Of a stretch of 64,000 nt of DNA, positions 23,891 to 64,000 are shown piece after piece. The position numbers and the translations under genes are program-made. A model generated the notes under the pieces. It saw only the letters and a program-made list of their open reading frames with translations, ran no database searches and was not told the origin of the DNA. This stretch comes from Naegleria gruberi (Eukaryota): NCBI GenBank assembly GCA_000004985.1, contig GG738855.1, one strand, 5' to 3'. Every line of letters starts with the position of its first letter. Position 1 is the first letter of the stretch.

Positions 23891-23899
23891 TATTCAAAA

Positions 23900-43046: not shown

Positions 43047-43055
43047 TTCCCGCGC
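43047..43055. promoter_or_regulatory. TTCCCGCGC (near-consensus E2F-type site) in the divergent spacer, 70 nt from the ATG at 42977
   Basis: Read directly as gttaTTCCCGCGCattg. It is one position short of TTTSSCGC. Confidence 0.3.
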
Positions 43056-43282
43056 ATTGTACTCTGGAGACATTATTGTAGTGCGATTGATCAGAATGGC
43101 TTGAGGGTTTTGAGGTGAAAGAATGGAAATTGAGCTCCAACTAAGAATAAGTTCCCATTTCAAATAATTGTCAATGGCTCAATGGATTGTTGAGCTTGTA
43201 TGTCAAATTATCACTGTGGCAAAGATTAGACCAAAGAATTCAAGTTTGGTTGCTATGTTTGTCTAAACTTATTGTACTCTAA

Positions 43283-45408: not shown

Positions 45409-45465
45409 TTTTTCTTTCAATTTTAATATTAAATAATTTATGATGAATACGAAATTATTAAAAAA

Positions 45466-46650: not shown

Positions 46651-46703
46651 TACTAACTGAAATAACAGTCTAGGAGCTATCTGTTACTACTCAACAAAAA
46701 TAG

Positions 46704-46714
46704 TTTCCCGCCAA
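46704..46714. promoter_or_regulatory. TTTCCCGCCAA (canonical E2F-type site), 76-86 nt upstream of the CEP41 ATG
   Basis: Read directly as aatagTTTCCCGCCAAtcag in the 139-nt spacer. Confidence 0.5.
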
Positions 46715-46789
46715 TCAGAGTACAAATTTCAAATCAAAAAAAAATTCAACTTTGGATTTTTAATCTCCATTATACTGCACTGTTGTATT

Positions 46790-47787
46790 ATGAGCTGCTA
46801 TTTTAAACCTATTGGTGATGCTAAGGTAGGTTGGGAATATATTGTATGATGATGATGGTCTAATTATTCTTTTGTTTTAATTTAAATCAAAATAACAACA
46901 ATAGATTTTGGAGAAGAAGGCACCATCAAGTGTTTGTTTTAAAGATGTAAGATCATCACTGGATACAGGAAAAGTAAAAAAGAAGGATGATTCAGGTAAG
47001 TTCAAAGATCTTGAATGTTTCCGAACATTACTTTCCTAACAACAGGCGATTCTAAATTATTTAAAAAAGTTGAAAACTTTAAGAGAATGAAAGGAACTGA
47101 ATTAATGAAACTCATTCTTCTCAAATTAAATTCGCAAAATAACACCTCACAAACAGAGCCTCTAGAACATGCTCCACCATCACCAAGTGGATCAAAAAGC
47201 TTGTATTCATCTATGGCTTCTTGCACATTCTCTGAAGCCAAATTAGCAGTGCATCAATCTGATCCAATCCTTGTAAAAACCAGATTGAAGGAAGATGTTC
47301 ATGATGTGGATAATATGGTACTCTTATTGGATGTTAGAGATACAGATGAATATTCAGTATGTCACATCCAGACAGCTTATAGATATCCAGCTGCTACAGT
47401 GAATAGAACTGTTAATCCATTTACACCTGAAATGCTTTCTTTTGTAAGTGTTTAAATCTTTAAAATTGGAACCTTATTGGAATTATTAAGAAAAATCATC
47501 CTCTCAAAAAAATTGTAATATATGACAGGGACGAAAAGATTGCTTGTCCTGCTGCCAACCTTCTCTTTGAAAAGGGTTTTGATAATATTGTAGTTCTTAG
47601 TGGAGGCTTACAAGAATTCTTCCAAAAACACCCAGAGCTCATTGTTGGAGAAGTGCCAAAGGAATGGTATCCTCCTGTTCTAAAGAAGAAAACAAGACCT
47701 CCTTCTGTCGCTAGCTTGAACTCAACAAAGAAGGCTTCGATTACAAAAGAGAAGACGAAATCAACAGGACCAAAACCATTCAAGTAA
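46790..47787 (+). CDS. CEP41: Centrosomal protein CEP41 (rhodanese-domain ciliary/basal-body protein)
   Basis: Model: join(46790..46825,46905..46995,47046..47443,47491..47787). The introns are 79, 50 and 47 nt (GTAGGT, GTAAGT, GTAAGT donors; AG acceptors). The joined protein has [66 protein letters not shown] and [33 protein letters not shown]. These parallel human CEP41 [60 protein letters not shown] and [34 protein letters not shown]. Confidence 0.85.
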
Positions 47788-48006
47788 TTTAGAGGCAGTT
47801 TTTGTCAAGCAAAGACTTCAATTTGTGCATTAAATTCGCAGCGATGTTAACTCGTGTAACATCATTGATAAATACCAACAACAAGAACACGAATAAATTT
47901 TAAATTATGTTTTATTGTTTGATGATGATTAGGAAAAGGTGTTGGGTGGTAGAGAGGGAAAATTGAGAGTGAGTAAATAATCTGAGATTATTAAACATTG
48001 AAATGT

Positions 48007-48351
48007 TTAGAAACCGTGGACTTTAAGAGATTCCTTGGTGACAATACCTTCTTCGAGCAAAAATTCAGAAATATTGCCTCGTTGATCTCCAGAAACTTGG
48101 ATAACTTTACCTGCCTTTTCATCTTCTACTATTGTTCCGTTGCAACAGAATTTATGCTTGACACCACTGATGAATTTCTTAAACTTGAAATTACGAGGCA
48201 ATCCTTCAACAATAGTAACACATTTTCTACCGTTACGCTTTTGGACTCTGATGTGAACGAAGTTTTGTTCAGTAACAGTGGTTGAAAGTTGGTTGTTGTC
48301 TGCGGAATCTCTGAAAGGATCGAATGTTTGGAAGTTTTGAATTTCAGACAT
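48007..48351 (-). CDS. EIF1: Translation initiation factor eIF1 (SUI1)
   Basis: ATG at 48351. The 114-aa product contains FDPF.D......VHIRVQKRNGRKCVTIVEGLP..F.FKKF....KHKFCCNGTIVEDEKAGKVIQVSGDQR..I.EFL, the SUI1 domain pattern. Confidence 0.92.
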   Translation of the reverse strand: MSEIQNFQTFDPFRDSADNNQLSTTVTEQNFVHIRVQKRNGRKCVTIVEGLPRNFKFKKFISGVKHKFCCNGTIVEDEKAGKVIQVSGDQRGNISEFLLEEGIVTKESLKVHGF

Positions 48352-48513
48352 GATGATGCGATGCAATATTTTTTTGTGTTTTTTATTTAAAAAAATAATA
48401 TTACTTGTTTTTTATTGATGATTATTTTTAGTTTGACAAAGTCCATTTGAAATTTGTTATGCTCTGTTTACAATTCAAATTAAAGATGTAAGCCGATTCT
48501 AAAATATTAGCAT

Positions 48514-49152
48514 CTATTGACTGGTTGAAGTACCATTCTTATTTTCAATATCTTTTTTAATGTAAGAGAAATTAGCTTCGAGCTCTCTTTCCAATTCTTG
48601 TTCCTTCTCTTCACTCTTTTTAATCTTGTCATTGAACTTTTTAACCTTGGCTTCCAAATTCTTCCTCTTTACAGCCCAAATCAATAAACAAACAGAAATA
48701 AACAGAACACCAAATGCACGAATACCTCTATAAATAACCTTCTTTAACATGACTTCTGCATCCTTACGGGATTCCAATTCTTTTTGTAACATTTCTCTCT
48801 TTTGTTTCAGACTTTCGGCAGAGTCCATGATGAGAGAAGCTGTCGATTGCAAATTAAAAACATTTTCTGATGTTGTTGATTGTTCTGATGAGGTATTGGT
48901 TTGTTGTTCGTTGGTTGTTGTGGTAGGTTCTTGGGCTGGTGAATTTTCTACCACTGGTTCCGATAATGTTGAGGTTTTTTCTTCTTTACTTTCTGATTGT
49001 TCTGATGAGGTATTTGTTGTTGTTGTATTATTGGATAATAATCTATTAGAAAATTGAGTGGAAAAACATCTTGATGAGAAGGTAGTGGCCAATCTTTGGT
49101 TATATCCTGTTGGCAATCGGAGTAATTGTTTGGTAAATTGTCGTGATAACAT
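48514..49152 (-). CDS. Hypothetical protein (212 aa) with a presequence-like N-terminus, T/S/E/Q-rich repeats, one TM helix and a C-terminal coiled coil
   Basis: A single ORF with ATG after an A-run. The N-terminus is MLSRQFTKQLLRLPTGYNQRLATTFSSRCF. There is an internal duplication (NTSSEQSESKEE / NTSSEQSTTSEN), and the TM helix is AFGVLFISVCLLIWAV. Confidence 0.6.
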   Translation of the reverse strand: MLSRQFTKQLLRLPTGYNQRLATTFSSRCFSTQFSNRLLSNNTTTTNTSSEQSESKEEKTSTLSEPVVENSPAQEPTTTTNEQQTNTSSEQSTTSENVFNLQSTASLIMDSAESLKQKREMLQKELESRKDAEVMLKKVIYRGIRAFGVLFISVCLLIWAVKRKNLEAKVKKFNDKIKKSEEKEQELERELEANFSYIKKDIENKNGTSTSQ

Positions 49153-49248
49153 TTTTTTGTTGTGAATTTAAAAATTGAAAATTATTACACAAGTACCTGC
49201 AAGGTAAATTGAAAATCTAAATCATTTCTTTAGGGTTTTATGGTACAA

Positions 49249-50123
49249 TTAATGAGAGAGTAAATTCAAACGATCTTTCCATGCTGTATCTGCCGAGTGG
49301 AAGGTAATAATTCTCTTTTCGTCTTGCTCATCTGCCACTTCAGAGTTCATGTCTGTATCGACTGGTTCGAAAATAATACAGAGAATGTGACATTTGGTTG
49401 TGTCTGACATGGCATCTTTGATGATAGTGTGATGTGGTTGCTTCATCACATCTTCTTCCAATAATCTATTTCCCCATTCAATGAGCGAAATTCCACTTGA
49501 AAAAACAGATGGTAAATCCAATCTATCAAATCGTTCCAATCTATAGAGGTCAATATGATGAATAGGACTATTAAATTATTATATTTGTTAAATTAAAATT
49601 CATTGTAATAATACGAAACTTACACTTTCTTGCTCGTCATTTTGGATTCGTAAATATTATCTAGCAAAAATGTTGGTGATGGAACATTGAGATTCATATC
49701 CTTTTCCAATACTCTGATAACGTGTCTTGCAAAAACAGATTTTCCACTTCCCATATCACCAATTAATAAGACAACATCTGTAGATTCCAACATGGATGAA
49801 AATCTTTCGGCCAAATTTCTAGTTTCTTCAACTGAATTGACAACAAAAGTTGCTTCAAAATAGGTGGGAGTGACCTGGGATGGTATTTCTCTAGCCGAAT
49901 ATTTATAATCATCCATTTTCTGTTGCTTTTTCAACTCTGGCCCATTTAAACAAGAGTGAGTACTGAATGTTCTTTCTCCGATGAATTTTGTAGATTGATT
50001 CCAATTAGTGGTAGTCCAGTTGGCCGCACTTCCAAGTATAAACTTTCCATTGTTTTTGGTGATGGATTGAATTTGATGGATGAGATTGATACTTCTTCTT
50101 CTGCTGCTGTTGCTCGATAACAT
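49249..50123 (-). CDS. tsaE: TsaE (YjeE)-family P-loop ATPase of the bacterial t6A tRNA-modification system, with a roughly 90-aa N-terminal extension
   Basis: Model: complement(join(49249..49567,49624..50123)) with a 56-nt intron (GTAAGT..AATAG). All TsaE signatures are in order: Walker A LLIGDMGSGKSVFARHVI, SPTFLLDNIY, (intron) PIHHIDLYRLER, and ISLIEWGNRL. Confidence 0.8.
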
Positions 50124-50477
50124 ATTGATTAATGGACAATAGAAGTCTACTACTGTGTGTGTTAATCAAAAATGAAGCTTTGAGGCAAGTTAAAGTTGTG
50201 TGATGATATTTTTTTTTTGTATGAAAGAAGGGTTTGATTCTGATCTTGTTTGTGTGGCTTAGAGTCTATTTATACAATGAAGCCGAAAATAGGAAGTATT
50301 ATTCAAGAATGTACTTGATAAATGACTACTTTAAATAATTTGATTTTACAATGCAAAGTATCATCTACAGAGAGTTTCTATTAAAAGTCAACTCTTGTCG
50401 AACTAAAGTATTTATCCTGTAGAACACAATGATGGAAATTAGTCATCTCCTTGTTCAGGAATAAGTATTTATTAAGC

Positions 50478-51865
50478 TTACTTTTCATAAATTCTATGCA
50501 AATAAATGGTTAGTGGTTCATATTGATCAGTGGCTTCTTCAATGTCAAAACAGTAAGCTTTTGGATATTTTGGTGGTTCTTTTGAAGAGATAGATAGTCC
50601 CTCTGATTCGGCCTCTACTCTTGATATTCCACAAAATGTTTGAAGAGATTCAACAAGGGATGTTGCATTTTCACTCAAAGGATACTCAATTGAATCATTT
50701 TCTGCCTTCTTTCTCCTTTCGTTTGTATAAATTGCTTGTTGATGAAAGGAAAAAATGTTTTCTTTAGTTTCTGATAAGGCAACATCTATTTTGATTCCAC
50801 TCCATTCAGTATCATACTCCTCTGAATCAAATCTATTATCCCTTATTGTAAAGTAGTGTAAATTATCCTTATTGGGAGTATCACATGATTGTCTCATCAT
50901 TTTCTTGAGGAGATCAATAGGAGAACGGTCAATTTGAATTTTCATTGAACGATTGCCAGAGAGAGAACCATCCCAACTACGTAATTGACCCTTCTTGATT
51001 TGTACTGGCTTGTTTGGTTTAACCTTGAGTTTCCAACTCAAAATCATTTCATCTGAATTACCTCCAGGATATCGACTGAATAAAAATTAATAAACTCATT
51101 GAATTAAGAAACATACTCTAGTGCCATGAATAGAATACTGATTGATAGTGAGCAATTCTTCTTGTACTCTTCAACAACAGATGGTAGATTTGAGGTTAGG
51201 TGAACACTAAATCTAGGATCCACCTTCTTACTTCTCATCACTTGTACAAACTCATTTCTATTCATCATATCACAAATGCACGAGTTAAACTTTCCATACA
51301 TTCTAGAATTCAACACTGCCAAATTTGCAAATGATTCAGCATTGAGAAACTTTGAAATTTCATAAATCAAATCATTGGTAAACTCTTCCAATGCACTTGT
51401 TCGTGTGAGTGTTGAGCTTGACATTTTAATCTTTTTAGAAAGATTTTCCTCTTCATCAATTGTAATTTCCAAACTTCTCTTCTTCTCTTGTTTTAACAAT
51501 TCCTCAATTCTTTTCTTATCATTGGCTTTTAATTTTTTTAATCCGTGTATTTCGTGATTCTTCAATTTTTCAACCAAATCATCATCTTTGATATATTCTA
51601 AATTAAATATTATTTGTTATTGATGATGATGGTGGTGTGTGATTATAAAGTATTTACCTTCAAAATTGTACCATTCTGGATAATTTCCACCAAAACTATC
51701 AACCTCTGATCTGACAATCTTTCCAATCCTAAGAACACTTTGTGGAATATTCTTGCCAGTCAACTTGCATTTTGATCGGCTTGATTTACTGTACTCGATC
51801 ATATAATCACCTAGTGGTGGAAATTCAGGCATTTTTTCTTGTGTTTTCTTTCTGTTTGCAAACAT
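50478..51865 (-). CDS. Hypothetical protein (about 428 aa) with a PARP-type zinc-finger-like N-terminus lacking most zinc ligands, an F-box-like segment, and an unknown C-terminal domain
   Basis: Model: complement(join(50478..51075,51117..51597,51658..51865)). Introns of 41 nt (GTATGT..TTCAG) and 60 nt (GTAAAT..TTTAG) join three track ORFs in frame. DYMIEYSKSSRSKCKLTGKNIPQSVLRIGKIVRSEVDSFGGNYPEWYNFE follows the zf-PARP template (EYAKSGRS.CK.C...I.K..LR......S..FDG....WYH..C), but only the first Cys is kept. EEFTNDLIYEISKFLNAESFANLAVLNSRMYGKF is F-box-like. Confidence 0.55.
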
Positions 51866-52151
51866 TTCTGGTTTTTATCTGTGGCCACTGGATGGTTGTT
51901 TGGAAGTAAAAGAATAGAAATTGTAAACTAATGAAAAGTGCGCGCAACGGGATGTGTTTGTGTTGTTTCTGCGAGTCAATTTTGTAAAACTCATGCTGGG
52001 GTTGAATTTATTTTGATACAATGTTATTGAAAAAGCTGACAAACAAACCTTATTGGAATATTTCACACACCACAAAAGAAAATTAGGAATCACAAATTGA
52101 TAAGGACCTTAACGATTCTTACTATACGCACATCAATAGTGAAAACAATAT

Positions 52152-52757
52152 TTATTGAGAGTAATAATCCTTTCTTGGTTTCCAAGTTTTCATTAGTTCA
52201 TTCTTTTGTTTCAAATTCTTAATAGCCTCATTTGGGTCAATAATTGCTAAATATCCAAAATTGAGTGGATGAGTTTGACACAAAGATGGTGTAGCTGTTT
52301 CAGATAATCTCTGATTGACCTCTACTAATTTTCCTTTCACATATGATTGTATTTCCAATGAGCAAATTGTTTCTGGAGACTCATTTGAGGCATATTCAAT
52401 TTTACAAATTATTGTGTTTGGTTGAATTGAGTGACATGGTAATTTTTGTTTGTTCTTTTTTCCATTGTTGTTATTTTGTTGTTTGACCTCCTTTGGTTTT
52501 TCATCATCCTCCATGGCATTATCGGATGGTGTTGTTGTAGTTGGTGGTTGAATTGGAAAATGCACTTTTACTACTCGGAAAGTATTTTGGCAAAGAAAGT
52601 GCTTCGGAGATAAACAAATCACAAATAAACCATTCTTATGTTCTTGAATACATAAATCATAATTTAAAATTGGGTCATTACTGGTTGTTGCAGGTTGAAT
52701 ATAGTAATCATCAATATTCTCGTTGATTAAAAGTTGGGTACGTTCACATTTACTCAT
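52152..52757 (-). CDS. ABITRAM (FAM206A/Simiate)-like protein
   Basis: A single 201-aa ORF with ATG after an A-run. LFVICLSPKHFL and VKGKLVEVNQRLSETATPSLCQTHPLNFGYLAIIDPN parallel human ICVITLAESHPVL and [35 protein letters not shown], as I recall them. Confidence 0.6.
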   Translation of the reverse strand: MSKCERTQLLINENIDDYYIQPATTSNDPILNYDLCIQEHKNGLFVICLSPKHFLCQNTFRVVKVHFPIQPPTTTTPSDNAMEDDEKPKEVKQQNNNNGKKNKQKLPCHSIQPNTIICKIEYASNESPETICSLEIQSYVKGKLVEVNQRLSETATPSLCQTHPLNFGYLAIIDPNEAIKNLKQKNELMKTWKPRKDYYSQ

Positions 52758-52784
52758 TTTTTTAAATTAATTTTAAATTATTAA

Positions 52785-54906
52785 TTATTTATTGAGAGTG
52801 AATTTCTTTCGTTGTTGCTGAGAGTAAGCTAGTGTATTATACATGTTCTTGATTTCTGCTAATTGACGTTTCAATTGATCATTTTCTTCAAGTAATCGTT
52901 TCTGTTCTTCTTCTAATTCTGATTGTTGTGCTTCTGGGTCTAATCTTGGTGGAGTTCTTTGTCTAATAGATGGTAGCTCAAAGCTCGAAGATAATTGTGA
53001 AGATTCTCCTAGTTTATCCTTGAGTGCAGTTATGTGTTGTTCATAATTTCTTTTCTGTGTTTCAATAATTTCTTGGTAGGTCCTGATTTCCTCTTCCTTA
53101 GATCGTTTACTATGCTCAATTGTGAGTTTAAGAGCTTCATTTTCATCTCTGAGGAGCATTATTTCTTCCTGGAGTTGTGATGTTGAAGGATAATCGAACG
53201 TATTTCTTTCTCCTTTCAAGAATTGACATTTTCTTTCCAGTTCTGAAGTTTGCAATCGTTCTTTCATCAGTATTTCATTAGTCTCGTTCAGCTTTTGCTC
53301 CAGCTCTGTTATTTTAGATCCAGTAACTTTTTTAAGTTCTTTCAACTTTTCCAATTCTATAGTTGTAATAGTGAGTTTTAATCTTAATTCCTCATCCGGT
53401 GTGGTATTGGAAATTGGCTGTTTGAGATCGAAACTAGTATTTTGAAATTGTAGAGTGTCTAGTGCTCTTCTACTTGTGCTTTGAAGCTCATTTTTCAAAT
53501 ATTTGATGATTTCATCCTTTTGTTCAATGTCTTTGCCCTATAGAAAATATTAAGCAAAGCTTCATTAAAAGTACTACCTACCAGCCTTTTGATTTCTTGC
53601 TCTAATTGTGGAGCAGATGGTATAGATGCTCCAGATTTTGGCCTTCTTTTCTTTAAATTGTCAATTTCTGCTTTCAACAAATCGACAAGCTTGTTGTCAT
53701 TCTCGGATTTCTCAATCATTCTGGCCTGTTTGGCCTTAATCTCATTGTAGGTCTTTTCTAAAATTTTGTTTCTAGCCACAGATGCATCCAACTTATTCTT
53801 GACAGCTTTGATTTCTTCCACTTTTTCAGTAATTTCTTTTTTCAAATCGACAACTTCATTCCTTCTTTCTTGTTCAAGTTTTTCAATTGCTTTTCTTTGC
53901 CTCTCATCCACAGAAACAGTAGATAGTGTTGAAATGGAGCTGTTTTCATTGGCAGAGACTGATTGAGGAGATATACTATTAATTGTTGATGAGAGAGGAC
54001 TTGGAATATTTGAAATTGTAGGAGAAGAGATTGTTTGTGATTCTAACTTCTTTTGGAGATCCTTGACCTTATTTTTAAGTAAATAAATTTGTTGAGCTCT
54101 TCCTCTAAACCCGTCGCTATTGGTAAGAAGTGAATCAATCGACAAGTCATCACCAACTTCTTTTTGAATAAGAGCTCTCAGTTTCAAATTTTCATTCTTG
54201 TGCTTTTCTCCTTGCTCTCTAAGCATTTTCATTCGTTTCTCATAAGTTGCAGCCCTTTCTTTAAATTGTTTAAGTAATTTCATTGTTTCATCCTCTCCGT
54301 CCTCTTCTTCCACAGATCCTGAATTGGTTTCATTTAAGTTTTCCCTCACCTTAGAACTAAAATGTCTCAGATTGTTATTATTTGTGACTGTTATTGATCG
54401 ACTCGATTGTTGTAATTGTTGTACCTGTTGAGTAAGAACTGCAACTTTAGACTTTTCCTTATTCAATTTTACAATTATATTCTTATTTTTTTTTGCCAGC
54501 TCAATGAGCTTTTTGTCTCTCAAGTCTATTAATTCCTCCGAATCTTGATCATGAAGTCATTAAATTGAATCTTGTTGTAATATTACATACCATCCAAAAA
54601 CAAAGCTTCTACTTCTCGGTTTGTATTCCTCAACTCTTCCACAACTTCTTTTAAATCTCGTATTTCACTCTCCTTTGCTTCAAGCTCCTCTAGGAGAGAT
54701 TTATTTACATCTGGAGAGCCTTCCATTGCAAGTTTATCCAACTTGGCATAGGATGATGGTTTGTTGTTTCCTAAATCCTCAATATTTGGAGGAGTTTCGT
54801 CTCCGCTACTATTCTCTTCATCCAATTCCTTTTTTTTGATGATCTCCTTTGATTTTAATTCTTGTTTTGATGACGATTTTTGTAGTTGTTGTTTACTTGT
54901 CGACAT
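52785..54906 (-). CDS. Long coiled-coil protein (676 aa)
   Basis: Model: complement(join(52785..53537,53582..54543,54591..54906)). Introns of 44 nt (GTAGGT..CTATAG) and 47 nt (GTATGT..TCAAG) join three track ORFs. The exon total of 2031 nt is divisible by 3. There is heptad-rich sequence throughout. Confidence 0.75.
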
Positions 54907-54936
54907 TTTTTTATTTGAATGAAAATTGTACTCTAC

Positions 54937-54949
54937 TTTTGGCGGGAAA
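54937..54949. promoter_or_regulatory. TTTTGGCGGGAAA (canonical E2F-type site, TTTCCCGCCAAAA on the gene strand), 31 nt upstream of the coiled-coil gene ATG
   Basis: Read directly as ctacTTTTGGCGGGAAAgttt in the 99-nt spacer. Confidence 0.55.
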
Positions 54950-55005
54950 GTTTATTCAACCTCCCAACTGTTATCAAGACTTAAAACAGAGGAAATATAT
55001 TTTGA

Positions 55006-57585
55006 TTACATGATCGAACAACACTTAGCCTCCTTTTCTTGGACTGGTTTTCCTGGGTTCTTATTTGGGAGTGGTGTTGGTGGCATGAAAATAGGAGATA
55101 GTTGAATATCATCTGTGTGAAGAGTGTCATTAACATTCTTCGTTTGATTATTCTGTTTAGTGAGTGGAGGAGAGTTGGACTCAGAAGCATTAAGGTTGAC
55201 TGCAAAAATATTCTCATCAGTTTTGAGAGCACTGTTACTGGAGGAGGGTTTTTCCTTGACTGGAGTTTGTGGAGGAGATAGCTGGTATGGTGTGATGTAC
55301 TTTTCATTTTCTGGACCTTTCAAATCCTTGATATGAAAAAGAGAAAAGAATGTAGACTGAAGGGATGGATCCATTGGGTGTGGCTCCAACTTTTGTTTTC
55401 TATCAGCAAAAGGTACTGGTAAATAGAGATTTTCTCGTAATTTCCACTCATATTTGGCTCCTCTTTCGAATGGTATAGTTCTATTGTTCTGCACAACATC
55501 AATATTGTAATAGAAGGATTTGGACAGCTCATCTCTTTCCAACAAATTAGATCCTCCTCCCACGTTTACAAATGAATAGTAGAATGCAAATATTTTGAAT
55601 AATGATTGATTTCTTGAAGGGTCATTTTCAAAAATCTTGTAAAACTCTACAAAACAAGGCACATCTTCCTCAACCCAATCAAGCTCAGTAAGCTTTTTGT
55701 CAAGGAAAAGAGAAATACTGACATTGAGTATAAGTCTATAAGAATTATGGTGTGAGGAAGATATTATATCATCAACGTATCTGGTAACATCAGTTTTTCC
55801 AAAAAATGCTATTGAATGTTGCTCAATAGATCTCTTTTCAATAGCCTTGTTAAAGCTCATATCTATTACTTCCATAACAAAGTCTCGAGCTATAACTATG
55901 GAATCATAGGAGGGCTTGTGTTGTGGACTGGTTGGAGGAGAATAGAAAACGTCAGAAATATATCCAACTGGTGTTGGAGTACTAGACTTGGACTCACCAC
56001 TCATTTTAGAGAATGAAGATGATCGTGTTCTTTCCTTGTAGTTTTCCCTTCTCCACTGCATTAGTTTCCAATTTTTTGGTTGGCTTCTATCGTGCACTTC
56101 AAAAGAAGAAAAATCATTGTCATACATTTCAACACTCTCCGCAGTACTTATTTCACTAAACGTATCAGTGACATCATATTGATCTAGCTCTTGTTTAGTT
56201 TCAGGCAAAGAAGTTGCAACTGTAAGAGGACTGTTTGGCCGAGATGTGGTGAAACTTTTAGAATTTCCAGTTGTGTTGGGCCTAGAAGGTTTCTTCTTTG
56301 CTTTCATGTCCCCTATTGTTGGAGTTTTCACTCTTTGTATTTGAGTATTTACAGGAACTCTTTCCACACTCTTCCTTACATCAGTTACTATGGATGTAAG
56401 TGATGATATACTTCCTCTTCGAGGTGAATTTTGGGCTGATGGTGGTGGAAACATTGTGGAATTTGTGGGTATGGCATCTTTAAGACTTGGTTTCTTAACA
56501 GCAGTTGAACCAATACTACCACTCGATGTATTGGCTGTACTTGTCTTATCCCACTGTTGCTTCTTCTTTTCTGAGGGTTCTTTACATTTAATTTCATCGG
56601 TTGGATTGAAAAATTGAGGCTTATATCCCATATCCTTAATTGGTTTTGAAGGTTCCGATCTCCTTAATGGATCAACGGCATTTGTTTTTGTTTTTGGTTT
56701 AGATTTTGTTATTATTACTGGTTGAGGGGGTGGAGGTTGGTTAATTGTTTCAATTGTGGCTTGTTTCTTTGCTTTTTCATCATTTACATATTTTGACTCG
56801 TCTTCAAGAACTGGGGAAGCTTGGAAAAACTCATCCTCAGAAGAATCTCCAATTAAAAAGTCGTCTTCCTCCTTTTTTTCTACTTTGGAGCCGGGCACTG
56901 AGAATGTTATTTGAGTTTTTGGATTGCCTTGAATGTTAGGAGTAAAAAGCCACTCTCCACTTTCGTCTTCTTGAGCCTCGCTCAGTAATTTTGAGGCAGC
57001 CATCAATCTAATGTTATGAGCAACAGATTTTCTGTCACTAATATTGGGTAAAACCTTATCCTCTGTTAGAAGGTCTTTTTGAGATCCAGGTTTAAGGTTG
57101 AGTAGTTTTGCAGAATTTCCTAACGGAGAAGGGTAATGAATATACTTCTCATTAATTAAATAATTATTTACACCTTTCTTTTCAATTAGATTTCCACTTG
57201 GAGTTTCATATTTGATGTCTGGCATTAGAGAATCCATTTTTGTAATATAATATGCTTTGTCCCTCTCCTTTTTTACCATTATCTCCTTTTCAAAGAATTC
57301 CCCATCCATAAAACGTTTCTCTTCATCACCCATTGAGAGGTTTGCTCTCGGCGTTAGAATTGTTGGAGAAAGCAAAATGTCACTCATTTCAAGAGGTGAT
57401 AATTTACTTCCTGTTGGATCAAAGAAAGATCCTCCTAAAGATCCATTCAAATCATCAAATTCATCATCCAAAATACTTGTTTGTTTGAGCATGGTAAGAT
57501 TGGTATCCATCTCCCGCTGCATCTCCTCAATGGATTGTTGATTATCAAACAAATCCAACTCGCTATTGTCCAACAAACTAGACAT
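55006..57585 (-). CDS. Hypothetical 859-aa protein, largely disordered, with a structured region of about 200 aa near the C-terminus and a terminal CaaX box (CCSIM)
   Basis: A single ORF. It ends ...KEAKCCSIM*, and CSIM fits C-a-a-X with X=M. No family recognised for the region ILNVSISLFLDKKLTELDWVEEDVPCFVEFYKIF...FAFYYSFVNVGGG...YEWKLRENLYLPVPF. Confidence 0.68.
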   Translation of the reverse strand: MSSLLDNSELDLFDNQQSIEEMQREMDTNLTMLKQTSILDDEFDDLNGSLGGSFFDPTGSKLSPLEMSDILLSPTILTPRANLSMGDEEKRFMDGEFFEKEIMVKKERDKAYYITKMDSLMPDIKYETPSGNLIEKKGVNNYLINEKYIHYPSPLGNSAKLLNLKPGSQKDLLTEDKVLPNISDRKSVAHNIRLMAASKLLSEAQEDESGEWLFTPNIQGNPKTQITFSVPGSKVEKKEEDDFLIGDSSEDEFFQASPVLEDESKYVNDEKAKKQATIETINQPPPPQPVIITKSKPKTKTNAVDPLRRSEPSKPIKDMGYKPQFFNPTDEIKCKEPSEKKKQQWDKTSTANTSSGSIGSTAVKKPSLKDAIPTNSTMFPPPSAQNSPRRGSISSLTSIVTDVRKSVERVPVNTQIQRVKTPTIGDMKAKKKPSRPNTTGNSKSFTTSRPNSPLTVATSLPETKQELDQYDVTDTFSEISTAESVEMYDNDFSSFEVHDRSQPKNWKLMQWRRENYKERTRSSSFSKMSGESKSSTPTPVGYISDVFYSPPTSPQHKPSYDSIVIARDFVMEVIDMSFNKAIEKRSIEQHSIAFFGKTDVTRYVDDIISSSHHNSYRLILNVSISLFLDKKLTELDWVEEDVPCFVEFYKIFENDPSRNQSLFKIFAFYYSFVNVGGGSNLLERDELSKSFYYNIDVVQNNRTIPFERGAKYEWKLRENLYLPVPFADRKQKLEPHPMDPSLQSTFFSLFHIKDLKGPENEKYITPYQLSPPQTPVKEKPSSSNSALKTDENIFAVNLNASESNSPPLTKQNNQTKNVNDTLHTDDIQLSPIFMPPTPLPNKNPGKPVQEKEAKCCSIM

Positions 57586-57691
57586 TTAAAATGTTTTTCA
57601 ATGATAATGGTGCAGATGATGTTTTGATCTATCAAATTAAGTAGTGCCTTAAATCGTCCTAGTCGTATTTTTTTTTAAATTTTTAAATCAT

Positions 57692-57701
57692 TTGGCGCCA
57701 A
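57692..57701. promoter_or_regulatory. Perfect palindrome TTGGCGCCAA (as TTTGGCGCCAA), 107 nt upstream of the ATG at 57585, with CAACGG 9 nt to its right
   Basis: Read directly as aatcaTTTGGCGCCAActcctttCAACGGcaac. Confidence 0.55.
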
Positions 57702-57997
57702 CTCCTTTCAACGGCAACAAAGGGCCTGTTCTTTTTTCTAAGGACAAACCATATCAATCCTATGATACGATAACGTATTAATAAATTAATTTGTTTGATT
57801 CAGATCTACAGGATTCTTAGAAGATATATAATACTCTTTGTAAGGAATTGAAAATGATCTCTTCAATATTGAACTAGATACTTTGTTACTACCATATATC
57901 AGCCCAACTCACGGCAATTTATTTAATAATCGTGATAGACCTTGAAATTAGAGGCCTTGAAATTGTTGGCAGGGAAGATGCGTATGGCAAATAAAAA

Positions 57998-58803
57998 ATG
58001 GCTAAACAACTCTTCCAAGTTCATCATCAGCAGAATCAACAACAACAACATGAAGAGGTGAAAGATGTCATCACGGGATTTGGTATTATCATAGTATTAT
58101 GTTTTTCTCAATATTTGATTGGATTCTTTTTAAATTATAATAACTTTACTTTATACGAATACTTTGCCACATGTGTTGTTTCTTTATTTGCATTTGTTGG
58201 AGGATTTGAACTATATTTCAAAGTAAGTGATTATGATTGATAGGTCAATATCTTAATTATCCACAGTCACAAAGAATTGTAATGGCCAAACCTAGAGATT
58301 TTATCAATTTACATTGTAAATTAGATGACTGGATACCCTTTATTCCTCATGCTATTTATTTGTATTCTTTTGGAGATTTATTTATCATGTCTCTGATTAT
58401 ACCCACCTCACCTGATTTGGAATATTTATTTAGAGTCTTATTTGGAATGCTTCTAGTGACAATTACACAATGTATTTTCTTTGTAATTTTCCCATCCAAT
58501 ACTCCAGATTTCTATCGGGATAGCATAGCTCACTATGAGTCAAAAAACGGAAAGTTGGACAACTTGACAAAGTATTTCTATGAAAAGATGCACAAAGCAG
58601 ATCTGAATATCAACACAGTACCATCAGGCCATTGCTCTCTGGCTACCTATTTGTCACTCACTCAACTCCACATTTTTGGATATTGGACTTTATTGAATCC
58701 ATTGGCAATTGGAATAAGTTGTGTCCTCACCAAACAACATTCAATACTGGACACTTTTGCAGGAGCACTATTTGGATATTTTCTCTTCATTCTCATTCAT
58801 TAA
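57998..58803 (+). CDS. PAP2-superfamily integral membrane protein (PAP2_3 / sphingolipid-synthase-like)
   Basis: Model: join(57998..58222,58267..58803) with a 44-nt intron (GTAAGT..CACAG). It has the PAP2 C2 and C3 motifs VPSGHCSLA and KQHSILDTFAG, and multiple TM helices. Confidence 0.68.
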
Positions 58804-58899
58804 ATTCGCTGTATTTCCTTCCTCAATAATATCAAATCACAATTAGAATCTACTCTTTTCCCAACAGCAAAGAAATTAAAAAATCAATTCACATAAAAA

Positions 58900-61637
58900 A
58901 TGGCTGGATTGAAAAAACTTTTAAATAAGAAAAAGTATGTCCTCTCCATGTTTCCCTATCCGAGTGGTAATTTGCACATGGGACATGTTAGAGTGTACAC
59001 AATTTCGGACCTCATTGCTAGGACTCATAAAATGTTAGGGTACAATGTTATTCATCCATTTGGTTTTGATGCCTTTGGATTACCTGCAGAGAATGCTGCC
59101 ATTGAGAGAGGTGTTTCTCCAGCAGATTGGACTCACAAGAATATTGCTCACATGAAGGAACAAATTAAAGCCTTGGATTTTGATTTTGATTGGGAGAGAG
59201 AAGTGATAACTTGCAATCCGGAATATTACAAGTGGACACAATGGCTTTTCCTTCAACTCCACAAGAAGGGATTAGCCTATCAACAAGAAGCTTTGGTAAA
59301 TTGGGATCCGATTGATAATACTGTATTGGCCAATGAACAAGTTGATAGTCAGGGAAGATCTTGGAGATCTGGTGCTTTGGTGGAGAGAAAGAATTTGAGA
59401 CAATGGTTTTTCAAAATTAGAGAATTTGCAAACGTATGTTTAATGCAATATGATTCAGTATTATTTAGTGATGATGATTTTTAAATTTGGAATTTATTAA
59501 TAATTATTCTGTAATTCTGATTTAATGATAATTAATTGATGATTTAATGTTGGATGAATAATATTAATAATAGGAATTATTGGAAGATGCTGATACTTTG
59601 GAAAATTGGCCAATTAATGTTAGAACAATGCAAAAACAATGGATTGGAAAATCGGAAGGAGCTGAATTTTCTTTTGAAACAACTAGTGGAAGTAAGATTA
59701 CTGTCTTTACAACAAGACCAGACACAATTTATGGTGTCACTTATTTAGCTGTTGCTCCAGAAAATGATAAATTAATTGCTGCAATGGTTCCAGAATCGGA
59801 TAAATCTAGAGTTGATGCTTTTATTAAGCGTCTTTCATCATTGACAAGTGTGAAGAGAAATGAAGTTGCCAGCAACTCAAAAGAAGGTTGTTATACTGGT
59901 GTTGATGCTATTCATCCAATCACCAAAGAACGTATTCCAATTTATATTGCCGATTATGTCATTGCTGACTTTGCTGAGGGATGTGTTATGGGAGTCCCAG
60001 CTCACGATACCAGAGATTTTGAATTTGCTCAAAAACACTCCATCCAAGTTAAGAGAGTAATCAAACCACTCGATGATATTGTCGATGAAAATCAATGCTA
60101 CACTGAAAAGAATGGTATTCTCGTTAATTCTGCACAATTTAATGGTATGAAAATTGCTGAAGCTACACCAAAAATTATTCAATTTGCTAAAGAACAAGGT
60201 TTTGGTGGGCCATCTGTCCAATTCAAATTGAGAGATTGGTTAGTTTCAAGACAAAGATACTGGGGTGCACCAATTCCAATCATTCATTGTCCTCAATGTG
60301 GACCTGTTCCAGTTCCTGAAAAGGACTTGCCAGTTCTTTTGCCAACAAATATTGAATTTACTGGTAAGGGACCATCTCCATTGGCCAAAGTTGAAGATTG
60401 GATTAATGTCAAATGTCCATGTGGAAAGGGTATCGATTGTAAACGTGATACTGATACTATGGATACCTTTGTTGATTCATCTTGGTATTTCCACAGATAT
60501 ACCGATGCCAAGAATGATAAGGAGGCATTTAGTGTAGAAAAATCCGATAAGGAAATGAATGTAGATATCTATATTGGAGGTATTGAACATGCCATTCTTC
60601 ACTTGCTCTATTCTAGATTCATTCACAAATTCCTCCACAGTGAAGGATATATGAAACATAAGGAACCATTTGATACTCTCCTCACTCAAGGAATGGTCCA
60701 AGGTGAAACATTCAAAGATTTGGATAACAATAAGTATTACAAACCAGAAGAAATGACAAGATTGGAAGATGGCACAGTTGTAGATAAGAATACTCTCAAA
60801 CCATTGACAAGCGTTTGGGAAAAGATGTCCAAATCCAAATATAATGGTGTAGATCCAGAAGCTGTTGTGAAAGAATTTGGTTCAGATACTGTTCGTCTCT
60901 ACATTCTATTCAAAGCTCCATATGATAAGGAGTTGATGTGGGAACAAAATCAAATTTTGGGGCAACAAAGATTCCTTGCTCGTTTGGATGGTTTGATTTC
61001 CAACTTTGCTAAACGTAAATCTGAAAATGTACAACAATCTGAAGTGGAAACATCTGATGATGAATTCAAATTCTTGAAGGAGATTTATTCTCTCATTGAA
61101 CAAACACGTGAAGGTGTGACATCTCGTTATACATTCAATGTTTGTGTTTCTAATCTCCACAAATATGGTATTGCTCTCCAAGAATATGAAGAAAAGATTG
61201 GAAATACTAAGGCTTATGAAGAAGCAATGCTTTTGTTACCATCTGTTATGGCCCCTTTCACACCAATATTTGCTGAAAAGACCTTCAAGACAGTGACAGC
61301 TCATTTACCAAAAGATCACCCACTCAAACAATGTACATCTGTGTTCGAAACTGCCTTCCCAACTGTTACTCCAAGCGAAATTAAGGTTGAAAAGAAGAGT
61401 CAACTCTGTGTCGTGCAAGTGAACGGTAAGAGAAGAGACGAGCTCCAAATTCCAATGTCCCTTTTAAAGATTGCCAACAATTCTGAAAGACAAACAGCTG
61501 TTGAATCATTTGTTATGAGTAACAGTAGAGTTATTGCTATCAAGAGGGAACAAAATGAAACATTCAAAAAGATTATTCACGTCGACAAGATGAAACATCA
61601 ATATGTAATCAATTACATTGTCGAAGAAAAAGAATAA
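58900..61637 (+). CDS. LARS2: Leucyl-tRNA synthetase, bacterial/mitochondrial (LARS2) type
   Basis: Model: join(58900..59433,59574..61637) with a 140-nt intron (GTATGT..AATAG). Motifs are [25 protein letters not shown] (HIGH), [72 protein letters not shown] and KMSKSKYN (KMSKS). Confidence 0.9.
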
Positions 61638-61641
61638 AAAT

Positions 61642-63380
61642 TTATCTCTTTGGTGGCCTTATCAATTGTTTCTTCACTTTCATTGGGAACATGTTGGCAA
61701 AGAACATTGGATCTTTCATCATTTGTTCACTCATTTTCTTTGGATCCTTCATGGCTGCTGAACCAGCCTTACTGATGAATGATTTCATCTTTTCGTACAT
61801 CTTGAGCATCTTGTTTACATCGGTAACTTCAACCTTAGCTCTCTTAGCCAAGTCCAATCTTCTGGCACTCGATGATTCAACCAAGAGAGGTTGCAATTTT
61901 TCTTGTTCAGACATGCAACTAATGATATGTTCGTGATTATCAATGAATGACAAGTCCATATTATCCAATTTATCTCTGAATTTACCAATAAATTGTTCTG
62001 GAAGGTAACTGGCCATATTTTTCAGAGATCCCATCTTTTTAAGCATTTGAATTTGATCTTGATAATCCTTGAATGTGTATGCACCCTTACTGAATTGAAC
62101 AAGTTTTTGTTGAGCTTGAGCAGCATCCAAATTCATGGCATCCTTAGCTTTTTGAGCGAGAGTCATAATGTCACCTCCACCCAAAATTCTCTTAGCCAAA
62201 CTTTGGGGATCAAAAGTTTCCAAATCATCCATCCTTTCACCAATACCAATATATTTAACACTCAAACCAACAACTTGTTTCATACTGATAGCACAACCAC
62301 CACTGCTAGTACCATCCATTCTTGTCAAAACAATACCAGATAAACCAACACGATCGTGGAATTGAGTAGCAATATTCACAGCGTCGTTACCAAGCATAGA
62401 GTCTGCAACCAACAAGGTTTCATTTGGTTGAACAATAGCTCTTAATTCTTCCAATTCTGTCATGAGTTGTTCGTCAATGTGCATTCTACCAGCTGTATCG
62501 AAAATTACAGTATCAAATTGTTCACCATTTGGACCCACATATTCCATAGCTCTCTTTGCAATTTCAATTGGATTTTGTTCTGGAATAATTGGAAGTGATT
62601 CGACTTGAATTTGTTGAGCCAATGTTTGAAGCTGCATTTGAGCTGCAGGTCTGTAAGTATCAAGTGATACCAACAAGACTCTTCTATTTTCCTTTCTCTT
62701 TAATTGTAAAGCCAACTTGGCACTCGATGTGGTTTTACCAGAACCTTGAATACCTGTCACCATGATAACTGATTTACCTTCAGTGGATGGAATTAATTCC
62801 AAAGGAGCAACACCTCCACCCAACAATTCTGAAAGTCTATCCATCACCATCAAGTAAACAGTAGCAGATTTTGGTAATTCTTCAGCTTTTTGATTCGGAC
62901 CAACCCATTTTGCAATACGTGACAGTATTCCCTTATTTTCCTGTGATTCAACTTGTTTAACAGCTGCAATACCAATGGCATCCTCAGTGGCTTCCTTCAC
63001 AAATTGTGAAACAACAGATTCAGCAACATCAGCATCCAACAAGGCAACTCTAACTTTTTGCATGGCCTCTTCGACATCTTCCTTGGTGAGTGTCTTCTTT
63101 TTGAAGAGATTAGTAAAAGCATCAGACATATTAGAGGTCAAGTTTGAAAATAGACCATATTGTTTTGGTGAAGAGTGGAAGAATCTCACTTGTTGTTGAT
63201 TGTATTGTTGAAGAACATTTGGAGCCCAACATTCTTGTTATTTGATGAAAATAAACTTGTATGATGGCACAAGGCTGGTGAAAATACTTCCGATGATGAA
63301 AAGACAATTTTACAGTGATGATGTGTGTTGGCTGTCTTTAAAAATCGTGAGAGGAGAGAACGACTATTACTTTTAAACAT
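61642..63380 (-). CDS. ffh: Bacterial-type signal recognition particle GTPase Ffh (SRP54 family) with an N-terminal presequence, so a putative mitochondrial Ffh
   Basis: The main ORF is 61642..63189 and has no ATG at its 5' end. An upstream ATG at 63380 in an A-run context opens MFKSNSRSLLSRFLKTANTHHH.. in another frame. One intron is needed: 63189..63313 (125 nt, GTAAAA..CAAG) or 63189..63256 (68 nt, GTTTAT..CAAG). The N, G and M domains are LLDADVAESVV, GIQGSGKTTSSAKLA, DTYRPAAQMQLQTLA, FDTAGRMHIDE, VLTRMDGTSSGG, IGIGERMDDLETF, RILGGGD and a Met-rich C-terminus. These are closer to bacterial Ffh than to cytosolic SRP54. Confidence 0.82.
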
Positions 63381-63617
63381 TTTTTTCTAATCTGTGTTGT
63401 TTTATTATTATAATTGTTTCTTCATGTATCTAATTGATGTGATGATAACAAATTGTTGTACTATTAGATATTATGAACGACGACAATTAAATAATTAATA
63501 TTATATTATAGTTTTTATTGTTTGAAAAAGGTGTCGAAAATTAAAATCAACCAAAACAAAGACCCATTTTGGTTAATATTGTTGTTATTGTTGGTGTTAA
63601 AAGGTGGTAGAGTAGAA

Positions 63618-64000
63618 TTATTGTTTACCTCCGATGATAGACTTCAAGTGTTCGTTGAGCTTGGTTGGTGTATTCTTCCATGAGTGAGAAGTAACAAGAT
63701 TGTAGGTGGAAATGGTTGGTTTGACTGGATATTGAACAAAGAAAGTTTGAGCAGCTTCTTCTTCTCCATTGACAAGATAAGAGTACAGCAAAGCATTACG
63801 CAAGGAAGCAACTTCTCTATCAGTTGAAGCTCTCTTAATATATAATCCAAAGGTAAGTTCAGCATCAGGTACGCTACCAACTTGACCGAAAGCAGCAATA
63901 ATCTTGGCCATATCATCAATTTCCAAATCACGTGGGTGAGCATCGTAGTGTTGCTTGAGAGAAATGAGAGACTTGTAGTCGCTTGCCTTGGCAAATTCTA
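63618..64000 (-). CDS. C-terminal part of a hypothetical helical-repeat protein. The CDS continues beyond the window end.
   Basis: The minus-strand frame stays open from 64000 down to the stop at 63618. It reads ..EFAKASDYKSLISLKQHYDAHPRDLEIDDMAKIIAAFGQVGSVPDAELTFGLYIKRAS...SIIGGKQ*. The track shows only the part after an internal TTG. Confidence 0.45.
   Translation of the reverse strand, partial: EFAKASDYKSLISLKQHYDAHPRDLEIDDMAKIIAAFGQVGSVPDAELTFGLYIKRASTDREVASLRNALLYSYLVNGEEEAAQTFFVQYPVKPTISTYNLVTSHSWKNTPTKLNEHLKSIIGGKQ

What the first reader, a model, noticed from the sequence alone, without database searches (positions are those of the whole stretch)
61642..63380. Bacterial-type Ffh with a spliced-on presequence, a candidate mitochondrial SRP GTPase
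The G domain (DTYRPAAQMQLQTLA, FDTAGRMHIDE, VLTRMDGTSSGG, RILGGGD) and the N-terminal LFSNLTSNMSDAF..LLDADVA match bacterial Ffh rather than cytosolic SRP54. The main ORF lacks an ATG. A 22-41 codon exon starting at the ATG at 63380 encodes MFKSNSRSLLSRFLKTANTHHH.., which is basic, S-rich and presequence-like. It must be joined by an intron ending at 63189. Mitochondrial Ffh/FtsY relics are known from only a few protist lineages, heteroloboseans reportedly among them. The gene also sits tail-to-tail, 4 nt apart, with another mitochondrial bacterial-type gene (LeuRS).
Basis: partly seen in the sequence, partly recalled or inferred. Interest (0 to 1): 0.6.

Follow-up and report, generated by a model that had tools for sequence, protein, structure and literature searches.

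The report
Known Naegleria mitochondrial Ffh gene
This is the already published mitochondrial signal-recognition-particle protein gene (mtFfh) of the amoeba Naegleria gruberi, and the break between its targeting sequence and its body is a one-base error in the reference assembly, not an intron.

Summary
The ORF at 61642..63189 (-) is a real bacterial-type Ffh with N, GTPase and M domains. Its closest bacterial relatives are alphaproteobacterial. It matches N. gruberi XP_002680081.1 at 100% wherever the two overlap. Pyrih et al. 2021 (PMC8321541) already described this exact gene as NgFfh/mtFfh. They reported organelle proteomics, RT-PCR of the 5' end, peptides, mitochondrial localisation in T. 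brucei, a phylogeny, the mtFtsY partner and the lack of an SRP RNA.

The proposed intron is wrong. The two frames differ because the assembly lacks one C between 63219 and 63218 (CCAA^ATG). Restoring it gives an uninterrupted 579-aa ORF whose first 110 residues are identical to the published N-terminus.

I confirmed this independently. A 99.2%-identical environmental genomic contig (L001) carries exactly that C and encodes a continuous 579-aa protein. Four relatives also have single-ORF genes. The proposed intron has coding-like composition.

The 4-nt tail-to-tail spacing with a bacterial-type LeuRS is real but is not conserved in relatives. Verdict: already known, low interest.

The parts
61642..63380 (-). 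Complete mtFfh (NgFfh) coding region. It is a single exon of 579 codons plus stop once the missing base is restored.
   Evidence: Inserting one C gives a 579-aa ORF whose first 110 residues equal the published N-terminus (PMC8321541 table S1). P0121 from L001 is 579 aa and differs at 3 residues.
63218..63219 (-). Site of the one-nucleotide assembly deletion. The window reads CCAA^ATG and the true sequence is CCAACATG. This is the real cause of the frame break.
   Evidence: Alignment of the window with L001 shows a single-base gap at this point. PMC8321541 Supp. fig. S2 legend states a one-nucleotide deletion relative to raw Sanger reads.
63154..63380 (-). N-terminal extension of 76 residues in the corrected protein, absent from bacterial Ffh: the mitochondrial presequence. 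It has 8 K+R, 1 D+E, 16 S+T and 7 H, and an amphipathic stretch at residues 5-20. An R-3-type motif RFF|HSS lies at 63169..63186 (cleavage site inferred).
   Evidence: Alignment A2 places bacterial Met1 opposite L77. The N-terminal leader was shown to target mNeonGreen to the T. brucei mitochondrion (PMC8321541).
63189..63313 (-). It is in fact coding sequence.
   Evidence: It has GT..AG ends, but its GC content of 33.6% (30.9% for the alternative) resembles coding sequence (36-38%). The genuine intron in the neighbouring gene has 17.9%. The ORF runs continuously through this stretch in L001.
62956..63141 (-). N domain (SRP54_N helical bundle), including the ALLDADV motif at 63025..63045.
   Evidence: Pfam PF02881, E=9.5e-12; motif coordinates.
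62866..62943 (-). A 26-aa insertion (QENKG...LPKS) at the end of the N domain, specific to the Naegleria/Willaertia clade.
   Evidence: Alignment A2. The NCBIfam ffh match is split, with its best stretch starting at residue 108.
62941..63015 (-). A 75-nt stretch that the old JGI gene model (XP_002680081.1) removed as a false intron. It is coding (VVSQFVKEATEDAIGIAAVKQVESQ).
   Evidence: P0001 equals ORF residues 21-58 plus 84-515. Peptides VALLDADVAESVVSQFVK and EATEDAIGIAAVK appear in PMC8321541 Supp. fig. S1B.
62179..62772 (-). SRP-type GTPase (G) domain. G1 is GIQGSGKTT (62728..62754), G2 is DTYRPAA (62641..62661), G3 is DTAGR (62485..62499) and G4 is TRMDG (62311..62325). The DARGG-equivalent reads TSSGG (62296..62310).
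   Evidence: Pfam PF00448, E=1.1e-66; motifs.
61777..62079 (-). M domain (signal-peptide binding). The SRP-RNA-binding motifs are degenerate: CMSEQEK at 61897..61917 and SSSARRLDLAKRAKV at 61831..61875, where bacteria have SMTxxER and SRKRRIAxGSG.
   Evidence: Pfam PF02978, E=5.7e-18; alignment A2. PMC8321541 reports the same mutated motifs and no SRP RNA.
61638..61641 (.). A 4-nt spacer between the convergent stop codons of mtFfh and LeuRS.
   Evidence: The spacer is 3 nt in L001.
58900..61637 (+). Neighbouring bacterial-type leucyl-tRNA synthetase gene. It has two exons (58900..59433 and 59574..61637) and one GTATGT..AG intron of 140 nt.
   Evidence: NCBIfam leuS_bact scores 632.7 bits against a cut-off of 548.4; Pfam. 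The intron was read from the sequence and the join restores ..REFAN|[13 protein letters not shown]...

Best explanation
Window 61642..63380 (-) is the nuclear gene for the mitochondrial Ffh (mtFfh, NgFfh) of Naegleria gruberi, as it appears in the reference assembly. The gene is intronless and encodes a 579-aa precursor. This consists of a roughly 76-residue basic, Ser/His-rich presequence followed by a bacterial (alphaproteobacterial-type) Ffh with N, G and M domains. The break between the ATG-bearing ORF and the Ffh ORF is a one-base deletion in the assembly, a missing C between 63219 and 63218.

Mechanism. Import into mitochondria is shown by others. The following steps are inferred by homology and are also the published working model. 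In the matrix, the M domain binds hydrophobic N-terminal segments of mitochondrially encoded membrane proteins as they emerge from the mitoribosome. The NG domain pairs with the NG domain of mtFtsY at the inner membrane in a GTP-dependent way. The nascent chain is then handed to Oxa1. No SRP RNA takes part.
For: Domain architecture and bacterial affinity. All named bacterial top hits are Alphaproteobacteria.

Identity with N. gruberi XP_002680081.1 is 100% over residues 21-58 and 84-515 of the ORF.

Published description of this gene (PMC8321541): LOPIT mitochondrial fraction, RT-PCR of the 5' end, peptides, localisation of both the leader and the full protein in T. brucei mitochondria. A monophyletic mtFfh clade is sister to or within alphaproteobacteria and separate from cpSRP54. 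No SRP RNA was found and the RNA-binding motifs are mutated. The gene has 0 introns and the gene sequence is inaccurate. A one-nucleotide deletion is shown against Sanger reads.

My own tests. Adding one C reproduces the published N-terminus. The independent genomic contig L001 (99.2% identical over 2.86 kb) carries that C and a continuous 579-aa ORF. All 7 substitutions in the mature part are synonymous. Relatives P0002, P0003 and P0004 are single uninterrupted ORFs with N-terminal extensions and a conserved (R/K/Q)-x-(F/Y)-H-(S/T)-S..G-(L/I/V)-F-S junction. The supposed intron has coding-like GC. The context is eukaryotic, since the neighbouring LeuRS has a spliceosomal intron.
Against: I could not inspect the raw Sanger reads or the RT-PCR product myself. 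The assembly-error statement rests on the paper plus one near-identical contig from an environmental strain, not on the sequenced clone. The NCBIfam ffh equivalog cut-off is not reached (399 against 473 bits), and the DARGG motif reads TSSGG, so the protein is a divergent Ffh. The targeting mechanism (substrates, Oxa1 hand-over, co- versus post-translational mode) has no direct experimental support in any mtFfh-bearing organism. The presequence cleavage site is only inferred.
Confidence: 0.95

Rival explanations
1. A short 5' exon (63380..63314 or 63380..63257) carrying the presequence is spliced to the Ffh ORF at 63188, across a 125-nt or 68-nt GT..AG intron.
For: Both candidate introns have GT..AG ends and restore the reading frame, giving proteins of 537 or 556 aa plus stop. 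N. gruberi does have short spliceosomal introns, for example in LeuRS at 59434..59573.
Against: The published RT-PCR-verified model has 0 introns. The frame break is explained by one missing base. L001 genomic DNA reads straight through as an ORF. Four relatives are single ORFs. The 'intron' has 31-34% GC like coding DNA, against 18% for the genuine intron nearby. Its 5' sites, GTAAAA and GTTTAT, differ from the GTATGT of that intron.
Confidence: 0.02
2. The one-base deletion is real in the sequenced genome. It would be a frameshifted pseudogene or allele, or a site of programmed ribosomal frameshifting.
For: The window as given has the frameshift. I could not see the raw reads myself.
Against: The paper shows four raw Sanger reads from the same genome project that carry the extra base, and confirms the corrected 5' end by RT-PCR. 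The protein is detected by mass spectrometry in the mitochondrial fraction. The near-identical strain has the base. The mature part is under purifying selection, with 0 of 7 changes non-synonymous.
Confidence: 0.02
3. Translation starts at the internal Met (MSDAF.., ATG at 63129), as in the old gene model. This would give a cytosolic or otherwise untargeted protein.
For: It is the first ATG in the main frame, and it is the start used in XP_002680081.1.
Against: The residues upstream of it (G-L-F-S-N-L-T-S-N) align with the very N-terminus of bacterial Ffh and are conserved in all relatives, so they must be coding. The protein fractionates with mitochondria, and the extended N-terminus drives mitochondrial import.
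Confidence: 0.01
4. A bacterial contaminant, or a recent horizontal transfer unrelated to mitochondria or related to a plastid.
For: The best non-heterolobosean hits are bacterial, at about 40-45% identity.
Against: The gene lies in a 64-kb low-GC eukaryotic context. It sits next to a gene with a spliceosomal intron, and the paper lists a pentatricopeptide-repeat gene upstream. It has a eukaryote-type N-terminal extension. Orthologues are present in Naegleria, Willaertia and Acrasis. The published phylogeny shows a monophyletic eukaryotic clade separate from cpSRP54.
Confidence: 0.01

Closest known systems
NgFfh / mtFfh of Naegleria gruberi (Pyrih et al. 2021, Mol Biol Evol 38:3170, PMC8321541; GenBank XP_002680081.1, contig ACER01000115.1)
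   Same: It is the same gene. The window ORF is 100% identical to XP_002680081.1 wherever that model is coding. After the one-base correction, the first 110 residues are identical to the published revised protein.
   Different: Nothing biological. The window carries the assembly's one-base deletion. The GenBank model also has a wrong start and a false 75-nt intron.
Bacterial Ffh, especially alphaproteobacterial (TIGR00959; PDB 7o5b, 2xxa, 2ffh)
   Same: It has the N, G and M domain order and intact G1-G4 motifs. The TRxDG form of G4 occurs in all alphaproteobacterial hits examined. The ALLxADV motif is present, and identity is about 42-45%.
   Different: It has a 76-aa presequence and a 26-aa N-domain insertion. 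DARGG is replaced by TSSGG, and the SRP-RNA-binding motifs are degenerate with no RNA partner known. It has a C-terminal tail of a different kind. It scores below the equivalog cut-off and is nuclear-encoded.
Chloroplast cpSRP54
   Same: It is an organellar, nuclear-encoded, bacteria-derived Ffh that in many lineages also works without SRP RNA and has mutated RNA-binding motifs. The sequence score against the cpSRP54 NG domain is similar to that against bacterial NG domains (205 against 192-236 bits).
   Different: cpSRP54 is derived from cyanobacteria and forms a separate clade in the published phylogeny. Naegleria has no plastid, and no cpSRP43-like partner was found for mtFfh.
Cytosolic eukaryotic/archaeal SRP54 (TIGR01425)
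   Same: It belongs to the same superfamily and has the same three domains.
   Different: The scores are much lower (215 bits against a cut-off of 576; PDB eukaryotic SRP54 about 144 bits). N. gruberi has a separate cytosolic SRP54 that fractionates with the ER.

Membership tests
Ffh/SRP54 family of SRP GTPases | N-terminal four-helix-bundle N domain with the ALLEADV-type motif | tested here: met
   Pfam SRP54_N, E=9.5e-12. ALLDADV lies at 63025..63045.
Ffh/SRP54 family of SRP GTPases | SRP-type G domain with G1 (GxxGxGKTT), G2 (DxxRxAA), G3 (DTAGR) and G4 (T[KR]xDG) | tested here: met
   Pfam SRP54, E=1.1e-66. All four motifs are present.
Ffh/SRP54 family of SRP GTPases | DARGG motif following G4 | tested here: not met
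   It reads TSSGG. Of the 121 closest sequences, 116 have D-x-RGG. The other 5, all of the Naegleria/Willaertia clade, have T/S-SSGG.
Ffh/SRP54 family of SRP GTPases | Methionine-rich M domain (signal-peptide binding) | tested here: met
   Pfam SRP_SPB, E=5.7e-18, residues 371-471.
Bacterial Ffh equivalog (NCBIfam TIGR00959) | Score above the curated equivalog cut-off (473.2 bits) | tested here: not met
   The score is 399 bits and the match is split by the N-domain insertion. It is still the best-scoring family by far.
Bacterial Ffh equivalog (NCBIfam TIGR00959) | M-domain SRP-RNA-binding motifs (SMTxxER and SRxRRIAxGSG) and a 4.5S RNA partner | tested here: not met
   The motifs read CMSEQEK and SSSARRLDLAKRAKV. 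Rfam finds no SRP RNA in the window. Published genome-wide and mitogenome searches found none.
mtFfh clade (Pyrih et al. 2021) | Sequence identity with the published N. gruberi mtFfh | tested here: met
   Identity is 100% to XP_002680081.1 in the shared parts. After the 1-nt correction, the first 110 residues are identical to the published revised protein.
mtFfh clade (Pyrih et al. 2021) | N-terminal extension (presequence) relative to bacterial Ffh, in a nuclear eukaryotic gene context | tested here: met
   There is a 76-aa extension with 8 basic and 1 acidic residues. The neighbouring gene has a spliceosomal intron.
mtFfh clade (Pyrih et al. 2021) | Phylogenetic placement with alphaproteobacterial Ffh, apart from cpSRP54 and cytosolic SRP54 | tested here: inconclusive
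   I built no tree. All named bacterial top hits are Alphaproteobacteria. Bit scores rank bacterial Ffh above eukaryotic SRP54 but do not separate it from cpSRP54. The published ML trees give 95-100% support for the mtFfh clade and its alphaproteobacterial affinity.
mtFfh clade (Pyrih et al. 2021) | Mitochondrial localisation | not testable with these tools
   Published: LOPIT proteomics and heterologous expression in T. brucei.
mtFfh clade (Pyrih et al. 2021) | Co-occurring mtFtsY partner | not tested
   It is not in this window. Published as XP_002682642.1 on ACER01000034.1.
   Both candidates meet this. It is necessary but weak evidence.
   L001 reads through it as one ORF once the extra C is present. 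Its GC is 31-34%, against 18% for the true LeuRS intron. The published model has 0 introns.

The most novel reading that the evidence does not exclude
The gene and the frameshift are known, but one detail may not have been discussed. In the Naegleria/Willaertia clade, the otherwise invariant DARGG motif of the Ffh G domain is replaced by T/S-SSGG. The same clade has a 26-33-aa insertion at the N/G junction of the N domain. If these two changes act together, the RNA-less mitochondrial SRP of these amoebae may assemble or activate its Ffh-FtsY GTPase dimer differently from every studied SRP. The substitution and the insertion are observed. Any functional consequence is pure inference.
Probability: 0.15. 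Interest if true: 0.35.

Novelty: already known. Interest (0 to 1): 0.1.

Why it matters
Mitochondrial Ffh/FtsY are rare relics of the bacterial co-translational targeting system, and they bear on how the ancestral mitochondrion inserted its own membrane proteins. That significance was established in 2021 for this very gene. What this re-examination adds is practical. The reference assembly has a one-base deletion here, and the GenBank model XP_002680081.1 has a wrong start and a false intron. A sequence-only reading is therefore led to invent an intron. An independent environmental contig now confirms the corrected, intronless 579-aa gene.

Tried and rejected
- **Exact look-up of four sequences (P0001, the corrected 579-aa protein, the GTG-ORF product and the MSDAF-start product).** The last three were absent from the collection. 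The same call exposed cluster member P0121, which led to the decisive contig L001.
- **The look-up of encoding contigs for P0001** returned nothing, so I could not fetch the reference contig itself. Identity with the reference rests on protein identity and on the paper's coordinates.
- **Rfam on the whole window** found no family at all, so there is no SRP RNA here. This was expected and is not informative about the genome as a whole.
- **PDB bit-score ranking** separates bacterial Ffh from eukaryotic SRP54 but does not separate it from cpSRP54. It is not a substitute for a phylogeny, which I did not build because a well-sampled one is published.
- **Conserved synteny with LeuRS** as a hint of co-regulation was rejected. 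The neighbours differ in L002, L003/L004 and L005.
- **Pfam on the 126 C-terminal residues of the upstream ORF (63621..63998, -)** gave no hit. The pentatricopeptide-repeat label for that neighbour comes only from the paper's table.
- **Structure prediction and the large profile searches** were not used, because they could not change the verdict.

Full report
**What is in the sequence**

On the minus strand, a 515-codon open frame runs from 63189 to the TAA at 61644..61642. Pfam finds the three Ffh/SRP54 domains in the canonical order:
- SRP54_N, residues 17-78, E=9.5e-12
- SRP54 GTPase, residues 140-337, E=1.1e-66
- SRP_SPB, residues 371-471, E=5.7e-18

NCBIfam ranks bacterial ffh first at 399 bits, ahead of eukaryotic SRP54 at 215 bits, although 399 is below the ffh equivalog cut-off of 473. 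Against solved structures, bacterial Ffh scores highest: B. subtilis 286 bits, E. coli 265 and T. aquaticus 230. Archaeal SRP54 scores about 206, the cpSRP54 NG domain 205 and mammalian SRP54 about 144.

The main frame has no ATG upstream of MSDAF. A 64-codon ORF in another frame starts at the ATG at 63380 and ends at a TGA at 63188..63186. The LeuRS ORF on the plus strand ends at 61637, four bases from the Ffh stop. The factual part of the observation therefore holds.

**Whose gene it is**

The best database hit is P0001, which is N. gruberi XP_002680081.1 / EFC47337.1. It equals residues 21-58 and 84-515 of the window ORF without a single mismatch. That gene model started at MSDAF and removed 63015..62941 as an intron.

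The next hits are as follows:
- a N. fowleri-type protein (P0002, 78% identity)
- an unnamed Naegleria-like metagenome protein (P0003, 77%)
- Willaertia magna (P0004, 68%)
- Acrasis kona (P0066, 41%)
- bacterial Ffh at 40-45% identity

Every named bacterial hit is alphaproteobacterial: Commensalibacter, Skermanella, Arboricoccus, Sphingomonadales and Ferrovibrio.

**It is already published**

Pyrih et al. 2021 (PMC8321541) describe exactly this gene as NgFfh/mtFfh. Their findings were:
- They found it in the LOPIT mitochondrial proteome of N. gruberi.
- They corrected the gene model by comparison with N. fowleri.
- They confirmed the 5' end by RT-PCR and the coding sequence by peptides.
- Both the N-terminal leader and the full protein take mNeonGreen into the T. 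brucei mitochondrion (Supp. fig. S1).
- Their phylogenies give a monophyletic mtFfh clade (Heterolobosea, Hemimastigophora, Alveida, Goniomonas). It is sister to or inside alphaproteobacteria and unrelated to cpSRP54.
- They found the partner mtFtsY, found no SRP RNA, and found mutated RNA-binding motifs.

**The frame break is not an intron**

[quoted passage not shown] The legend of Supp. fig. S2 says that the assembly (ACER01000115.1) has a one-nucleotide deletion, evident from raw Sanger reads.

I located the site. Inserting one C between window 63219 and 63218 (CCAA^ATG becomes CCAACATG) fuses the two frames into a 579-codon ORF. Its first 110 residues, MFKSNSRSLLSRFLKTANTHHHCKIVFSSSEVFSPALCHHTSLFSSNNKNVGLQHVLQQYNQQQVRFFHSSPKQYGLFSNLTS.., equal the published sequence.

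**Independent confirmation**

- The 90% cluster of XP_002680081.1 holds a second member, P0121 (579 aa), from an ENA metagenome assembly.
- Its contig L001 (2,856 nt) is 99.2% identical to window 60590..63447.
- L001 carries exactly that extra C. This is the only indel inside the coding region.
- P0121 differs from my corrected model at only three residues (H21Q, N50S, G52V), all in the presequence. The seven substitutions in the mature part are all synonymous.
- L001 is genomic DNA read as one ORF, so no intron is needed.
- The genes of P0002, P0003 and P0004 are likewise single uninterrupted ORFs that include their N-terminal extensions.
- The junction ..(R/K/Q)-x-(F/Y)-H-(S/T)-S-x4-G-(L/I/V)-F-S.. 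is conserved in these sequences.
However, their GC content (33.6% and 30.9%) matches coding DNA here (36-38%). The one clear intron nearby, LeuRS 59434..59573 (GTATGT..AG), has 17.9%.

**Anatomy of the protein (alignment A2)**

- Bacterial Met1 aligns with L77, so the extension is 76 residues.
- The extension has 8 K+R, 1 acidic residue, 16 S+T and 7 H, with an amphipathic stretch around residues 5-20.
- RFF|HSS fits the R-3 rule for the mitochondrial processing peptidase. The cleavage site is my inference.
- G1 to G4 are intact. The TRxDG form of G4 occurs in all alphaproteobacterial hits examined.
- A 26-aa insertion follows the N domain. It is specific to the Naegleria/Willaertia clade.
- DARGG is replaced by TSSGG. 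This occurs in only the five sequences of this clade among the 121 closest sequences.
- The M-domain RNA-binding motifs are degenerate, in agreement with the paper.
- Rfam finds nothing in the window.

**Mechanism**

Nuclear encoding, the presequence, mitochondrial import and the absence of a detectable SRP RNA are shown, by the paper and partly here. The rest is inferred by homology and is also the authors' working model:
- mtFfh binds hydrophobic N-termini of mitochondrially encoded membrane proteins at the mitoribosome.
- It docks through a GTP-dependent NG-NG dimer on mtFtsY at the inner membrane.
- It delivers the nascent chain to Oxa1, because SecYEG is absent.

A post-translational role is not excluded.

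**The LeuRS neighbour**

The neighbour is a bacterial-type LeuRS (leuS_bact 633 bits against a cut-off of 548) with one spliceosomal intron. The 4-nt spacing (3 nt in L001) means that the two 3' UTRs must overlap the opposite gene. The adjacency is absent in the N. fowleri-type contig, the P0003 contigs and Willaertia. It is therefore a species-level accident of a compact genome, not a conserved unit.

**Verdict**

The intron reading is refuted, because the break is a known assembly error. Novelty is 'already known' and interest is low (0.1). The only unremarked details are the TSSGG replacement and the clade-specific N-domain insertion. Their functional meaning is untested.

Noticed in passing
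window 62296..62310 (-): The DARGG motif of the Ffh G domain reads TSSGG. Of the 121 closest proteins, 116 have D-x-RGG and the 5 Naegleria/Willaertia-clade sequences have T/S-SSGG. The word DARGG does not occur in the main text of the 2021 paper.
   Followed up: partly
window 62866..62943 (-): A 26-aa insertion (QENKGILSRIAKWVGPNQKAEELPKS) lies at the end of the N domain. It is present only in Naegleria and Willaertia and is longer in the N. fowleri-type sequence. The false intron of the old gene model (63015..62941) abuts it, overlapping its first three bases.
   Followed up: partly
window 58900..61637 (+), intron 59434..59573: The bacterial-type LeuRS has one 140-nt GTATGT..AG intron of 17.9% GC. 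Its predicted start lies only 13 residues before the [11 protein letters not shown] motif and there is no long presequence, so a 5' exon may be missing from this reading.
   Followed up: partly
window 61638..61641: The convergent stop codons of mtFfh and LeuRS are 4 nt apart (3 nt in L001). The 3' UTR and polyadenylation signals of each gene must therefore lie inside the other gene's coding region.
   Followed up: no
L005 5001..6701 and 7627..9327: Willaertia magna (GCA_041937235.1, JBEGDK010000031.1) carries two identical 566-aa mtFfh genes 2.6 kb apart in tandem. This is either a recent duplication or an assembly artefact.
   Followed up: no
L001 versus window 60590..63447: An environmental N. 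gruberi-like strain (ENA ERZ929261) is 99.2% identical to the window. Three of its 4 substitutions in the presequence change the amino acid, while all 7 in the mature Ffh are synonymous. The constraint is thus relaxed on the presequence and strong on the mature protein.
   Followed up: yes
P0005, P0006, P0007 (metagenome proteins): Three unnamed metagenome proteins at 41-44% identity look like further eukaryotic mtFfh. P0006 and P0007 have basic N-terminal extensions ending in RFYA(A)T, and the M-domain RNA motifs are degenerate in all three. Their source organisms are unknown.
   Followed up: no
window 58237..58803 (+): A PAP2-superfamily ORF (PF14378, E=1e-9) lies just upstream of LeuRS.
   Followed up: no
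window 1..64000: Rfam at gathering thresholds finds no RNA family at all in the 64-kb window.
   Followed up: no
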